Assembly (NCBI RefSeq): GCF_006345805.1
Contig: NW_021823810.1
Location: 1 to 20,905, forward strand
Direction of reading: 5' to 3'
DNA length: 20,905 nucleotides
DNA from: Octopus sinensis
Lineage: Eukaryota
Every line of letters begins with the position of its first letter. Within the stretch, counting starts at the first letter, position 1. Below, piece by piece: positions 3,145 through 20,047 of this stretch. The translations under genes and the position numbers were made by a program. Under the pieces are notes generated by a model. It was not told the DNA's origin. It searched no databases and was given only the letters and a program-made list of their open reading frames with translations.

Positions 3145-3805
3145 GCGCCTTCCTCATCCATGTGGTCCCAATCGCCCTCCTAAAATTGTATCTCCACCGT
3201 CGTGGAGTCTTTGCGAGTGGTCGTTCCCGCTCGCGCGGATACCACTCGACAACTTCGCGGATCCACTGATTATCGGTGAGCCGGGGTACGTGTCCAGCCA
3301 ATCTCCTTCTTCTGGCGGGTCTCGCACAGCCCTAACACGTCGCACCTGATCTTCTTCCTCTCCTCCATAAGGTGGTTCAGTTCTTGCCACCTTGCGAAGG
3401 ACCTGCAGTTGTAGATGCATGTTTCAAGGTTGGTCATGTTCCATGACGGCCCTCGGGAACCTGTTATTCTTAGCAGCCTCTCGTCGCTCGAGTTGGACTC
3501 CGCCGTCATGGAGTGGCCTGATTGACGCGCAGGGTGCTGAGGCCCTTTTCCTTTTCTCTTCGTTTTGCGTGCTGTTTTAGCCATAAGATGACGCCATCCC
3601 ACTGGCTGGATGGGCAGGCCGACATTTTGTTGGATGGCCGTTGACTGTTCAGGAGTTCATCTGTCCTTTGATGGGTCTTATTTTTCATCCCATAGGGTGT
3701 CCTCACCAAGCGAGCCTGGTAGGATTGTCTGTTTAGTCGCCGACGACCCGATCATGCAAAGTTTTGTACTGGATTACATGTTATCAGTAGCACTCTAGAG
3801 CGACC
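3145..3805 (-). mobile_element. Internally deleted RTE-clade LINE (5' region and APE N-terminus fused to the C-terminal end of the ORF)
   Basis: ORF 3270..3602 contains TCIYNCRSF...LMEERKKIRCDVLGLCETRQKKE, the start of an AP endonuclease. ORF 3104..3301 contains AGHVPRLTDNQWIREVVEWYPRERERPLAKTPRRW, a typical RTE C-terminus. The segment is GC-richer than its flanks. The 5' boundary is approximate. Confidence 0.85.
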
Positions 3806-9581: not shown

Positions 9582-9759
9582 TATTTCAATTACAACCACT
9601 GTGTATGTACTTAAATATAAAGTAAAATGCTAAGATTGCATTAAGCCGAAGAAGACTGTCACACCTTCAGAGCTTTCCTCGGCAAAGAAATGAAAAGAAA
9701 ATACGGAGATGTACTTGCATAGCAAGTGACTTGATCTGAGATCGTGTGCTGGAACGAAA

Positions 9760-9983
9760 ACAATTGCAGCGTGGAAGGTGTTTATAAGCCATTTAAGAAA
9801 CACACAAAACCGTTAGATTCACTTCAACATTTAAATTTAATTTGTCAAAATATTTTCGTCGCTTTGAGACCGCGACCTGTTCACTGACAAAACTTTGTGC
9901 TGTATCTCTGAGAAGATGAAGTGAATCTAACAGTTTTGTGTGTTTCTTAAATGGCTTATAAACACCTTCCACGCTGCAATTGT
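9760..9983. repeat. 67-bp inverted repeat with 90-bp spacer; probable Penelope-like element terminus
   Basis: 9760-9826 and 9917-9983 are reverse complements with 1 mismatch, and the spacer contains the hammerhead variant. The Penelope assignment is inference. Confidence 0.85.
9841..9891 (-). ncRNA. Minimal type I hammerhead variant (G3:C8 core, extra G after A9, palindromic stem III)
   Basis: The minus strand reads UUUGUCA GUGAACA G GUCGC-GGUCUCAAA-GCGAC GAA AAUAUU U UGACAAA. This gives a perfect 7-bp stem I, a 5-bp stem II, a compensatory swap of the C3-G8 pair and a self-complementary AAUAUU. Confidence 0.7.
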
Positions 9984-10146
9984 AGATGTTAAACATTTAT
10001 AAATATAAACTGCTTATGGTAATATAAACTGTTTATTTAAAGGCAGTTATTAATCACTTAATAAACTAAACATACAGGTTTGTGTAACAGGGTTACTTAA
10101 ATACTTCCTATTTGTGTAGGTTTCTAAGTTTGTATGTACTATATAT

Positions 10147-11758: not shown

Positions 11759-13122
11759 TAGGATGTCCCCCTAAAATGTATACACACTATAGCAGATGAA
11801 AACTCACTTATTGCACTCATTTAGAATTAACCCATTAAAAATAATGGAAGGAGTCAGACAAAGCTTTGAACAAAGCAAATTTACTGTAAAGAGCAACTGG
11901 AACTTTGAAAATGCAGTCGAAGTGCAGAGACCGCTTAATAGGGAACTTCAAACAGATCCACCTAAGCGACTTACCATCCCAGAAGTTTGAAGCAGATGGA
12001 ACCGTTCAGAATGATCACAAGAAACGCTCTGGAAGAGCGCAGACGTCGACAAGCCGCAGAAAGATAGAAAGAGTTCTAGAAACGTATTGACAGAATTCAA
12101 GAAAATCTGTGCAGCAAGCGAAGTCGGGAGATTGGAATTTCAAAATCAAGCGTCCATTGCATTTTGAATCGCTGTTACTGGAAAACTTACATTCCAAGAA
12201 TAATTCATGCTCTCAATAAAGATGATCAGGACCGAAGTATGGACTTTTGCTTATGGTTCTTGACAAGATCCACACTTTCTAACAAAGATTGTTTGGAGAG
12301 ACAGGCTTCATTGAAATTAAATGGCTCATTAACCGCCACAGTACCACTTTACCGGGGACTTAAGTATTGGCATATTACGGAGATTTCTCATTTTAATTTA
12401 CCAGCAGTTACATTATGGTCGACTTGGCGTCAAAAGGATTATTTAGACTAGGGGTTCTCGTTCTAGTGAACCCCCATAGCCATTCGATGTTTAAAAATTA
12501 GTTTTATAGAAACTTTTTTCAAAATTCCTATTTTGTTTTTCCCACATTAACTTGTGTAGGTCGAACTATGTAAAATATTAGAGAAAAATACCTAACTGTT
12601 TCTTGCAATACATTCCAGTACATACATCGAGAGCAAAATTTTTTCAGAGTCCCTTAAAATACTATAGTGGATCCCCAGTTTACTGTTTTGTTACATGAAC
12701 TCCCAAAAGTCTTATATAGACTTTCAGGGGCCATATAGGCCCCGGTTGAGAACCACTGAGTTACACCGTTCTTCTTCGACAGTACTGTGACAACTCCCAT
12801 CTACTTGAACACGACATGCGAAGAATTCAAGAGGGCTTCGAAGATGTGGAGTTTATTTCCAGCAAGATGGGGTAACCCCACACAACCAGAGGAATGTAAG
12901 GGCCTGCCTTAAAATTTTGCCACATAAGTAGATTGGACAAATAGGTTCAGTAGAATACACACTGCGTTCACCGGATGACAGAGCGCTAAAATTTATTTTA
13001 ATGAAGTTTACATTAGAAAACCAACAACAGTCGACGAATTGAGGGCAGCCATTGACAAAGAATGGGCACAAATACCGAAGGAAATGCTTCTTGACGCTTG
13101 CAATTCCCTTGTTCCTCGTTAT
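11759..13122 (+). pseudogene. Decayed Tc1/mariner-superfamily transposon with a transposase pseudogene, interrupted by a MITE
   Basis: The left end is TA|TAGGATGTCCCC, resembling a CAGGGTGTCC TIR. Frameshifted peptides include FENAVEVQR...DPPKRLTI, KFEADGTVQNDHKKRSGR, KTYIPRIIHALNKDDQDR, PFFFDSTVT, FQQDGVTPH...RSPD and VYIRKPTTVDELRAAI. No right TIR is visible. Confidence 0.88.
12449..12758. mobile_element. 310-bp non-autonomous hAT (Charlie-like) MITE
   Basis: The ends TAGGGGTTCTC and GAGAACCACTG resemble a CAGTGGTTCTC-type TIR. The 8-bp flanks ATTTAGAC (12441-12448) and AGTTACAC (12759-12766) match at 6/8 positions. Excising the element restores the transposase peptide KGLFRPFFFD. Confidence 0.8.
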
Positions 13123-16355: not shown

Positions 16356-17122
16356 GTCGATTTTGTCGCCGTGGTCGACTTTGCCTTTCATCCTTTCGGG
16401 GTCAATAATTTAAGTACCAGTAAAACACTGGGGTCGATGTAATCGATTAGCCCCCTCCCACCAAAATGTCAGGCCTTACGAGCTGGCAGAATCGTTAGCA
16501 CGCCGGGCGAAATGCTTAGCAGTATTTCGTTTGCCGCTACGTTCTGAGTTTAAATTCACCCGAGGTCGACGTTGTCTTTCATCCTTTCGAGGTCAATTAA
16601 TTAAGTACCAGTGAAAAACTGGGGTCGATGTAATCGACTCATCTCCTCCCCCAAAATTGCTGCATTTGTAGAAAAATTTGAAACCATTATTAAGTCGGTG
16701 TGCTGGCAGAATCGTTAGCGCACTGGACGAAATACTTAGCGGTATTTCGCTCGTGGTTACGTTCTGAGTTCAAATTCTGCCGTGGTCGATTTTGCCTTTC
16801 GTCTTTTCGGGGTCGATTAAAACACTAATGAAACACTGGGGTCGACGTAATCGATTATTCCCCTCCCCACAAATTTCAGGCCGTGTCCCTATAGTAGAAA
16901 AGCTTATTATTATTATTAAAGCGGTGAGCTGTCAGAATCGTTAGCACGCTGGACAAAATGTGCTTAGCGGCATTTCGTTCGTCTTTACGTTCTCCGTCGA
17001 TGGCTTTACGTTCTCCGGCGTTCTCTGCCGATGTCGACTTTTTTTTCAACCTTCTGGAGCCGATAAGCTTGACTAGCCCACTTCTCCGAAATGTCAGGCC
17101 TTGTGCCTTCAATAGCAAAGAA
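16133..17122 (+). mobile_element. Head-to-tail cluster of five SINE family B copies (16133-16323, 16367-16477, 16479-16685, 16694-16902, 16920-17122)
   Basis: Repeated GAGCTGGCAGAATCGTTAGCAC head, B-box-like GAGTTCAAATTC, and central CCGAGGTCGACTTTGCCTTTCATCCTTTCGGGGTCGAT...AAGTACCAG. Confidence 0.88.
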
Positions 17123-18083: not shown

Positions 18084-18289
<206 letters not shown>

Positions 18290-18401
18290 GAGGGCATTAT
18301 TATATATCATGCCACACGCTAAGAGGGACATTAGTCATTTCTACCAAAAATTTTACTAATCCTACCAATGCAATTCTTCAAAGCAGACATTTAAAAAATT
18401 A

Positions 18402-18448
18402 AGTCTTGTATCACCTGTGATTTCGTAATTACGTACTCATCAGCAACT
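18402..18448 (-). ncRNA. Type I hammerhead ribozyme, copy 1 (degenerate or mis-called)
   Basis: The minus strand reads AGUUG CUGAUGA GUAC GUAA UUAC GAA AUCAC AG GUGAU A CAAGACU. The core is intact, but relative to the other copies 2 nt are missing from the 5' strand of stem I and stem II has one mismatch. Confidence 0.8.
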
Positions 18449-18859
18449 GGTTCTGAACGTATCATAAATAAACGACCTGTCTCGTCGGAGCCCAACAGCC
18501 AACTGCTAAACCAACGACGCACATGGGGAAGTTTACATATAATACATCCGTAAATGGCAGGCTTCTTCGAATTGCACTTCGGGTATGAAAAGTTTTTTCG
18601 GAATAAAATTATTTAACAATTAAGGATAACCTCTTAATAAGGAATCTTAACAAGAAATTATCAGGTAGATAGCGTGAAAAACCTCATAAGAGAAAAAATT
18701 TCGAAAATAATTCTTTCTTATTGAACATATTAATTTATATATAGAGGGCATTATTATACATACATGCCACACGCTAAAAGGGACATTAGTCATTTCTACC
18801 AAAAATTTTACTAATCCTACCAAATGCAATTCTTCAAAGCAAGACATTTAAAAAAATTA

Positions 18860-18908
18860 AGTCTTGTATCACCTGTGATTTCGTACTTACGTACTCATCA
18901 GCAAGACT
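18860..18908 (-). ncRNA. Type I hammerhead ribozyme, copy 2 (intact)
   Basis: The minus strand reads AGUCUUG CUGAUGA GUAC-GUAA-GUAC GAA AUCAC-AG-GUGAU A CAAGACU. This gives a 7-bp stem I, canonical CUGANGA/GAAA core, 4-bp stem II, stem III and an AUA cleavage triplet. The predicted cut is between 18867 and 18866. Confidence 0.93.
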
Positions 18909-19337
18909 GGTTCTGAACGTATCATAAATAAACGACCTGTCTCGTCGGAGCCCAACAGCTAACTGCTAAACCCAACGACGCACATGGGGAAGTTTACATA
19001 TAATACATCCGGTAAATGGCAGGCTTCTTCGAATTGCACTTCGGGTAGGAAAAGTTTTTTCGGAATAAAATTATTTAACAATTAAGTATAACCTCTTAAT
19101 AAGGAATCTTAACAAGAAATTATCAGGTAGATAGCGTGAAAAACCTCATAAGAGAAAACATTTCGAAAATAATTCTTTCTTATTGAACATATTAATTTAT
19201 ATATAGAGGGCATTATTATACATACATGCCACACGCTAAAAGGGACATTAGTCATTTCTACCAAAAATTTTACTAATCCTACCAAATGCAATTCTTCAAA
19301 GCAAGACAGGTCGTTTATTTATGATACGTTCAGAACC

Positions 19338-19386
19338 AGTCTTGCTGATGAGTACGTAAGTACGAAATCACAGGTGATACACGACT
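19338..19386 (+). ncRNA. Type I hammerhead ribozyme, copy 3 (one stem I mismatch), located in the loop of the fold-back
   Basis: AGTCTTG CTGATGA GTACGTAAGTAC GAA ATCACAGGTGAT A CACGACT. The 3' strand of stem I is CACGACT instead of CAAGACT. The predicted cut is after 19379. Confidence 0.88.
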
Positions 19387-19792
19387 TAATTTTTTTAAAT
19401 GTCTTGCTTTGAAGAATTGCATTTGGTAGGATTAGTAAAATTTTTGGTAGAAATGACTAATGCCCCTTTTAGCGTGTGACATGTATGTATGATAATGCCT
19501 CTATTATATTAATATGTTCAATAAGAAAGAATTATTTTCGAAATTTTTTCTCTTATGAGTTTTTCACGCTATCTACCTGATAATTTCTTGTTAAGATTCC
19601 TTATTAAGAGGTTATCCTTAATTGTTAAATAATTTTTTATTCGAAAAAACTTTTCTATCCGAAGTGCAATTCGAAGAAGCCTGCCATTTACCGGATGTAT
19701 TAGATGTAAACTTCCCCATGTGCGTCGTTGGTTTAGCAGTTGGCTGTTGGGCTCCGACGAGACAGTCGTTTATTTATGATACGTTCAGAACC

Positions 19793-19841
19793 AGTCTTGC
19801 TGATGAGTACGTAAGTACGAAATCACAGGTGATACAAGACT
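19793..19841 (+). ncRNA. Type I hammerhead ribozyme, copy 4 (intact)
   Basis: AGTCTTG CTGATGA GTACGTAAGTAC GAA ATCACAGGTGAT A CAAGACT. All three stems pair. The predicted cut is after 19834. Confidence 0.93.
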
Positions 19842-20047
19842 TATTTTTTTAAATGTCTTGCTTTGAAGAATTGCATTTGGTAGGATTAGTAAAAGTTTTG
19901 GTAGAAATGACTAATGTCCCTCTTAGCGTGTGGCATGTATGTATAATAATGCCCTCTATATATAAATTAATATGTTCAATAAGAAAGAATCATTTTCGAA
20001 ATTTTCTCTTATGAGGTTTTTCACGCTATCTACCTGATAATTTCTTG

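What the first reader, a model, noticed from the sequence alone, without database searches (positions are those of the whole stretch)
9841..9891. Second, unrelated hammerhead with a compensatory G3:C8 core swap and palindromic stem III
Seen on the minus strand: UUUGUCA | GUGAACA | G | GUCGC-loop-GCGAC | GAA | AAUAUU | U | UGACAAA. The core reads G3-U-G-A-A-C8-A instead of C3-U-G-A-N-G8-A, and the only two altered positions are the two that pair in the active hammerhead fold. Known: C3-G8 is a tertiary Watson-Crick pair that tolerates compensatory swaps, an extra nucleotide after A9 occurs in natural hammerheads, and minimal hammerheads with a short palindromic helix III are typical of Penelope-like elements and can cleave as dimers. 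Inference: this is a non-canonical ribozyme that CUGANGA-based searches would miss, with a predicted cut between 9848 and 9847 (UUU triplet, probably slow).
Basis: partly seen in the sequence, partly recalled or inferred. Interest (0 to 1): 0.8.

Follow-up and report, generated by a model that had tools for sequence, protein, structure and literature searches.

The report
Swapped-core hammerhead in octopus jumping gene
This 51-base motif is a hammerhead-shaped RNA with its key C-G core pair flipped to G-C, carried by more than 5,000 copies of an octopus Penelope-type jumping gene; it is likely a slow self-cutter that works only in pairs, but cutting is untested and most copies appear to come from uncut RNA.

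Summary
The motif is there as described, and it is not chance. It lies in the pseudo-LTR of a Penelope-like retroelement (PLE) family. The window holds a short, 5'-truncated, inverted insertion (9983-9702). A full-length copy elsewhere has pLTR-ORF(RT, GIY-YIG)-pLTR with the motif in both pLTRs, on the sense strand.

G3:C8 is the family state: 5,299 of 5,794 pattern matches. Five related PLE families carry the same minimal hammerhead at the same place with C3:G8 or U3:A8, different but paired stems, the extra G after position 9 and, in four, a palindromic stem III. So the swap is a natural compensatory change. Published double mutants show it is partly active. I found no natural G3:C8 report in a limited search.

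Against strong function: none of 108 copy ends lies at the predicted cut. Instead 40 pile up at a likely capped start site about 58 nt upstream. About 2% of copies are G3/G8, and the sister family has C at position 9.

The scan noted a similar, unresolved motif in another genome. Verdict: new variant of a known kind; cleavage untested.

The parts
9841..9891 (-). Type-I minimal hammerhead motif with G3:C8 core (G3 9884, C8 9879, A9 9878, extra G 9877); stem I 7 bp, stem II 5 bp, 6-nt palindrome for stem III (9854-9849), U17 at 9848; predicted cut 9848/9847
9702..9907 (-). Sense arm of the PLE insertion: from the likely transcription start (+1 = 9907) through the hammerhead and the rest of the pLTR to the end of the tail
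   Evidence: shared with all 29 other loci down to about 9702; matches the pLTRs of full-length copy L154
9908..9908 (-). G in front of +1, where internal copies have C or T; inferred to be the copied RNA cap
   Evidence: 17 of 18 copies ending here have G, 9 of 9 internal copies have C/T
9917..9983 (+). Inverted, more truncated second arm (pLTR 3' part without tail), 99% complementary to 9760-9826
9909..9916 (.). Short junction filler between the two arms
9702..9759 (-). PLE 'tail', present on one arm only; lies between two fixed 3' end points of copies
   Evidence: tail as the span between two RT start sites in PMC11167929
9702..9792 (-). First 30 codons of the element's ORF (ATG at 9792), truncated here; continues into the RT-GIY-YIG ORF in full-length copies

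Best explanation
The motif is the pLTR hammerhead of a high-copy octopus Penelope-like retroelement whose C3:G8 core pair has been swapped to G3:C8, and it likely remains a slow ribozyme that would cut after U17 only when two motifs pair through their palindromic stem III, probably with protein help. In the element's life cycle, transcription is inferred to start about 23 nt before the core. A transcript running from one pLTR through the ORF to the next holds two motifs that could form a dimer, while short transcripts with one motif stay uncut and capped. These uncut RNAs appear to be the main templates: RT starts at either of two fixed sites downstream (giving the tail), and two cDNAs join head to head, as in this window. 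Shown: sequence, position in both pLTRs, fixation, covariation across families, end-point patterns. Inferred: cap and start site, dimer, protein help, any cleavage.
For: Context: 2,561 candidates in the own genome; 10-16 nt target-site duplications in 12 of 17 copies with non-microsatellite flanks (11 microsatellite-flanked loci set aside, 2 of 30 not parsed). The motif lies on the same strand downstream of the GIY-YIG domain in 25 of 29 loci picked by that protein. Full-length L154 has it in both pLTRs. Fixation: 5,299 G3/C8, 308 G3/non-C8, 187 non-G3. Two subfamilies differ in loop II but not in the core or stems. A common A-to-G variant in stem I keeps a U-G pair (13 of 87; 17-28% of depth in four runs). 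Covariation: of six families, 3:8 is G:C in one, C:G in three and U:A in two; G10.1:C11.1 and the extra G are invariant; stems I and II differ but pair; stem III is a perfect palindrome in five of six, in four different sequences. The sister family (quick tree, SH-aLRT 100) has C3:G8, so G3:C8 is probably derived. Literature: the C3G/G8C double mutant partly restores cleavage in a PLE hammerhead that needs the PLE protein (PMC11167929); it is the only rescuing double mutant in that core region (PMC9901934); PLE minimal hammerheads cleave weakly and only as dimers (PMC4209133).
Against: No cleavage was measured. Of 108 arms sampled by a 3' anchor, 0 begin within -3..+2 of the cut, 93 extend past it, and 40 begin at -61..-55. 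About 45 of the 100 listed non-C8 copies are G3/G8 (about 2.4% of all matches, several times the rate of the other transversions), and 14 of 87 core-independent copies are G3/G8 (inflated by tandem arrays and duplicates). So core-broken copies were propagated or arose repeatedly. The sister family has 2,245 matches with C at position 9 in 95 of 100 listed and an imperfect palindrome, which hints at relaxed catalytic constraint in this octopus clade. Within the family there is no two-sided compensatory change, and the core is no more conserved than the flanking pLTR. The 6-bp palindrome duplex is worth only -0.2 kcal/mol on its own.
Confidence: 0.65

Rival explanations
1. A vestigial hammerhead: the swap was fixed while the ribozyme still mattered, but the present family no longer cleaves at a useful rate and spreads without it.
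For: Copy ends ignore the cut and pile up at a likely capped start; G3/G8 copies exist in several backgrounds; the sister family amplified with C9. Hammerhead mutants do not affect PLE insertion in vitro, and no RNA-seq ends were found at the cut in the anole PLE (PMC11167929). Naiad PLEs spread without canonical hammerheads (PMC8557442).
Against: The youngest ORF-bearing subfamily keeps every core base, all stems and the palindrome while loop II changed. Among copies that keep upstream sequence, 93 of 100 listed are G3/C8.
Confidence: 0.25
2. The bases are held by another job, such as an internal promoter just downstream of the start site, and the G3:C8 complementarity is a coincidence of two unrelated changes.
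For: The motif lies at about +17 to +67 from the inferred start, where Penelope has its internal promoter (PMC2377424, passages).
Against: My own rough estimate for two random core changes landing on positions 3 and 8 and being complementary is about 0.4% (1/78 x 1/3). Stems I-III pair with different sequences across families. The spacing from +1 to the core differs between subfamilies.
Confidence: 0.06
3. A chance hairpin in the spacer of a MITE-like inverted repeat.
For: Seen alone, the window copy looks like a 224-bp foldback with 67-bp arms.
Against: The arms vary in length and orientation, one carries a tail, and the motif belongs to both pLTRs of an RT-encoding element. Related PLEs have the homologous hammerhead.
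Confidence: 0.02

Closest known systems
Minimal type-I hammerheads in pLTRs of metazoan Penelope-like elements (Cervera and de la Pena 2014, PMC4209133)
   Same: Position in both pLTRs, sense strand; extra nucleotide between 9 and 10.1; G10.1:C11.1; short palindromic stem III; U17 is frequent in their alignment.
   Different: Core 3:8 is G:C. That paper reports C3:G8 and a U3:A8 variant; none of the 9 'GUGA' strings in its readable supplement is a G3 core (one supplementary file could not be searched). Stem I is longer here (7 bp).
Natural U3:A8 hammerhead variants (Perreault 2011, PMC3088659; Schistosoma Cercyon PLE)
   Same: Natural Watson-Crick covariation of the 3:8 tertiary pair.
   Different: U:A needs two transitions; G:C needs two transversions through an inactive intermediate. 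In the passages read, Perreault lists only U3:A8 as natural (the figure itself was not visible).
Engineered C3G/G8C double mutants (PMC11167929, PMC9901934, PMC8495972, PMC3884650)
   Same: Identical core swap; partial rescue of activity.
   Different: Those are laboratory mutants; this one is the fixed state of a genomic family.
Neptune-type EN+ Penelope-like elements
   Same: Single ORF with RT, a cysteine linker (C-x3-C-x2-C) and C-terminal GIY-YIG-like domain; tandem and inverted pLTRs; tail; frequent (TA)n flanks (features from PMC8557442).
   Different: Clade assignment was not tested against named reference elements. The tail is about 58 nt rather than 30-40. Pfam gave no RT or GIY-YIG hit for the 1,042-aa frame, though homologues carry PF00078 or PF01541.

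Membership tests
Hammerhead ribozyme (type I) | Three-way junction with stems I and II flanking the core | tested here: met
Hammerhead ribozyme (type I) | U4 G5 A6, A9, G12 A13 A14, A15.1:U16.1, H17, G10.1:C11.1 | tested here: met
Hammerhead ribozyme (type I) | Canonical letters C3 and G8 | tested here: not met
   G3 and C8 in 5,299 of 5,794 matches; no C3/G8 among the 100 non-G3 matches listed
Hammerhead ribozyme (type I) | Watson-Crick pair between positions 3 and 8 | tested here: met
   G:C here; C:G or U:A in five related families
Hammerhead ribozyme (type I) | Match to an Rfam hammerhead model | tested here: not met
   No hit at E<=10 in 9750-10000. The 150 listed whole-window rows also held no hammerhead hit for the canonical motifs at 18.4-19.8 kb, so this test is weak.
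Hammerhead ribozyme (type I) | Site-specific self-cleavage after N17 | not testable with these tools
   Only assembled contigs were available, no raw RNA reads; genomic 5' ends show no pile-up at the cut
PLE minimal (dimeric) hammerhead | Located in pLTRs of a PLE on the sense strand | tested here: met
PLE minimal (dimeric) hammerhead | Extra nucleotide after A9; short palindromic stem III | tested here: met
PLE minimal (dimeric) hammerhead | Cleavage as a dimer | not testable with these tools
   Needs a bench assay
EN+ Penelope-like element | Single ORF with RT and C-terminal GIY-YIG endonuclease | tested here: met
   1,042-aa frame with YVDD, cysteine linker and YIGET motif, read by eye; homologues named RT-domain proteins, some with PF00078 or PF01541; no direct Pfam hit
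EN+ Penelope-like element | Tandem or inverted pLTRs, one-sided tail, target-site duplication | tested here: met
   the window's own copy shows no duplication
Neptune clade | Phylogenetic placement with named Neptune elements | not tested
   No named reference sequences were in hand; only the linker motif was seen
MITE (DNA transposon) | Fixed-length terminal inverted repeats at both ends, no RT-encoding parent | tested here: not met

The most novel reading that the evidence does not exclude
This is the first natural, catalytically active hammerhead with a G3:C8 core, fixed in thousands of copies of an octopus retroelement. One PLE clade would then use three of the four Watson-Crick states of the active-site pair, and with the sister family's C9 core it would point to a hidden layer of non-CUGANGA hammerheads, perhaps tuned down on purpose so that the capped element RNA is cut only as a protein-bound dimer.
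Probability: 0.4. Interest if true: 0.68.

Novelty: new variant of a known kind. Interest (0 to 1): 0.52.

Why it matters
The 3:8 pair was established with engineered swaps and natural U3:A8 variants. A fixed natural G3:C8, reached by two transversions, is evolutionary confirmation of that pair and means standard descriptors miss whole families (over 5,000 copies in this genome). It also gives a ready test set for the open question of what PLE hammerheads do: one clade with C:G, U:A, G:C and C9 cores. The genomic footprint (copies starting at a likely capped start upstream of the ribozyme, none at the cut) agrees with in vitro work showing that uncut RNA is the insertion template.

Tried and rejected
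Rfam scans: no hammerhead hit. MITE reading: rejected. Pfam on the endonuclease fragment and on the 1,042-aa frame: nothing significant.

The 5'-end pile-up as a splice junction: the upstream sequence resembles a branch point and 3' splice site, but the copies keep the AG and add one G with variable bases before it, which fits a capped start better. An intron was not tested on reads.

Copy ends marking the cut in vivo: none found. Core-broken G3/G8 copies being enriched among long copies: not supported, 1 of 100 listed.

Sequencing runs: no RNA holder listed, contigs only, so no evidence on expression or RNA ends. Searches list no variant at core positions in runs of four organism codes, but depth is lower there and one search's table was cut.

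An automatic DNA alignment of the family motifs was out of register, so pairs were read by anchoring on the core instead. Of 13 closer metagenome PLE loci, 4 gave a Watson-Crick-core motif downstream of the ORF, 1 an A3/G8 core and 8 none; several contigs end soon after the ORF. The tree is a quick one without bootstrap or one-clade test, and one locus (L198) was left out for lack of a long open frame.

Lunse et al. on PLE hammerhead dimers and Przybilski and Hammann 2007 were not held and may bear on novelty.

Full report
Observation. Stems I (7 bp) and II (5 bp) form in the predicted fold, z -2.52. The core is G3-U-G-A-A-C8-A9 plus one extra G, followed by G12-A13-A14, the palindrome AAUAUU and U17; the predicted cut is 9848/9847. 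A descriptor with any Watson-Crick 3:8 pair and long stems gives 3 hits in the window against a mean of 0.013 in 150 shuffles. A CUGANGA pattern misses the motif and Rfam has no hammerhead hit there.

Surroundings. The motif lies between 67-bp inverted arms, 9760-9826 and 9917-9983. The 2.7-Gb own genome holds 2,561 candidates for this stretch. In all 29 other fetched copies one arm continues for about 58 nt to a fixed end, at 9702 in the window. Twelve of 17 copies with non-microsatellite flanks have 10-16 nt target-site duplications; the window's copy has none, 11 microsatellite-flanked loci were set aside and 2 were not parsed. Longer copies lead upstream through a microsatellite-rich region to a GIY-YIG-like domain. 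In 25 of 29 loci picked with that protein the motif lies downstream on the same strand. One locus has a 1,042-aa open frame with RT motifs, a cysteine linker and the endonuclease. L154 is a full-length pLTR-ORF-pLTR copy with one frameshift and the motif in both pLTRs; its ORF starts at the ATG that corresponds to window 9792. Inverted truncated arms and a one-sided tail are described features of PLEs (PMC8557442, passages). The host is an octopus: the closest protein, labelled Octopus vulgaris by its source, matches the own genome at 99%.

Is G3:C8 fixed? Exact 22-nt patterns give 5,299 G3/C8, 308 G3 with another base at 8, and 187 with another base at 3, so 91.5% are G3/C8. None of the 100 listed non-G3 matches is C3/G8. 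Of the 100 listed non-C8 matches about 45 are G, 40 T and 15 A (counted by eye), so G3/G8 is about 2.4% of all matches, more than the other transversions. In 87 copies picked without using the core, 67 are G:C and 14 G:G, the latter inflated by tandem arrays and duplicates. The youngest ORF-bearing subfamily changed loop II but kept core and stems. Within the family the core is no more conserved than the flanking pLTR, as expected for dead copies, and there is no two-sided compensatory change.

Covariation across families. A sister PLE family in the same genome (56% protein identity; sister in a quick tree at SH-aLRT 100) has a hammerhead at the same pLTR position with C3:G8. Four related PLE loci from metagenome contigs have C3:G8 (two) or U3:A8 (two). 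Across the six families G10.1:C11.1 and the extra G are invariant, stems I and II differ in sequence but pair, and stem III is a perfect 6-nt palindrome in five, in four different sequences. By parsimony G3:C8 is derived; the closest outside relatives gave no motif data. My rough estimate that two random core changes would hit 3 and 8 and be complementary is 0.4%.

Does it cut? Not testable here: only assembled contigs were available. As a proxy I mapped the 5' ends of 108 arms from 78 loci chosen by a 3' anchor on one chromosome. None begins within -3..+2 of the cut, 93 extend past it, and 40 begin at -61..-55. Of 18 copies that begin at that point with the AG intact, 17 have a G in front, while 9 of 9 internal copies have C or T (Fisher p 2e-6; in the other locus sets it was 17 of 24). 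I read this as a transcription start with a reverse-transcribed cap; that RTs copy caps is recalled knowledge, not from a call. The window's copy has this G at 9908. So most templates appear to be uncut. This agrees with the anole PLE, where unprocessed RNA was the main substrate, hammerhead mutants did not affect insertion, cleavage needed the protein, and C3G/G8C partly rescued cleavage (PMC11167929, first two of four parts read). Also against strong constraint: the sister family has C at position 9 in 95 of 100 listed of 2,245 matches.

Mechanism. Most likely (0.65) this is a slow, dimer-dependent and probably protein-assisted ribozyme. A full transcript holds two motifs that could pair through the palindrome; single-motif RNAs stay intact and serve as templates. 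Second (0.25), it is a vestige of such a ribozyme. A promoter constraint with coincidental pairing (0.06) and a chance MITE hairpin (0.02) are unlikely.

Comparison with what is known. PLE minimal hammerheads, the extra nucleotide, the palindromic stem III, weak dimer cleavage and a natural U3:A8 variant are in PMC4209133 (first two of four parts read; one supplementary file searched, one not searchable). Natural U3:A8 is also in PMC3088659 (passages). The G:C swap is documented as a laboratory mutant in PMC9901934, PMC8495972 and PMC3884650 (passages). Searches for a natural G3:C8 and for an octopus PLE hammerhead (supplement search of PMC8557442) found none, but two key papers were not held and figures are not visible. 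In phage contigs G3/C8 pattern hits look like background, 7 of 120 against 88 of 129 for C3/G8.

Verdict. A real motif and a new natural core variant of the known PLE minimal hammerhead, with good comparative support and no direct evidence of cleavage. Interest 0.52.

Noticed in passing
window 18279-20009: A different 462-bp repeat in tandem and inverted arrangement carries four canonical CUGAUGA hammerheads (18421-18443 -, 18879-18901 -, 19345-19367 +, 19800-19822 +); it looks like another PLE pLTR or retrozyme array.
   Followed up: partly
G000 sister family, e.g. L185, L186, L634: The sister PLE family's hammerhead has C instead of A at core position 9 (95 of 100 listed, 2,245 matches; 4 have A) and an imperfect stem III palindrome.
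   Followed up: partly
window 9907-9908 and family copies: Copy 5' ends pile up at one point with an extra G, a likely start site with copied cap; the bases just upstream also resemble a branch point and 3' splice site.
   Followed up: partly
L253 (metagenome contig), position 1736: A PLE-like locus has a hammerhead-shaped motif with good stems but an A3/G8 core.
   Followed up: no
G000 contig C30, L145-L151: The short pLTR unit with the hammerhead forms tandem and inverted arrays, some with G3/G8 cores; retrozyme-like.
   Followed up: no
window 3154-3656 (-) and 12080-12451 (+): Open frames that look like fragments of a LINE endonuclease and of a Tc1/mariner-type transposase (by eye, from recall).
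   Followed up: no
window 16480-16993: A 220-bp unit repeated 2.3 times at 77% identity, resembling a dispersed SINE-like repeat seen in other loci.
   Followed up: no
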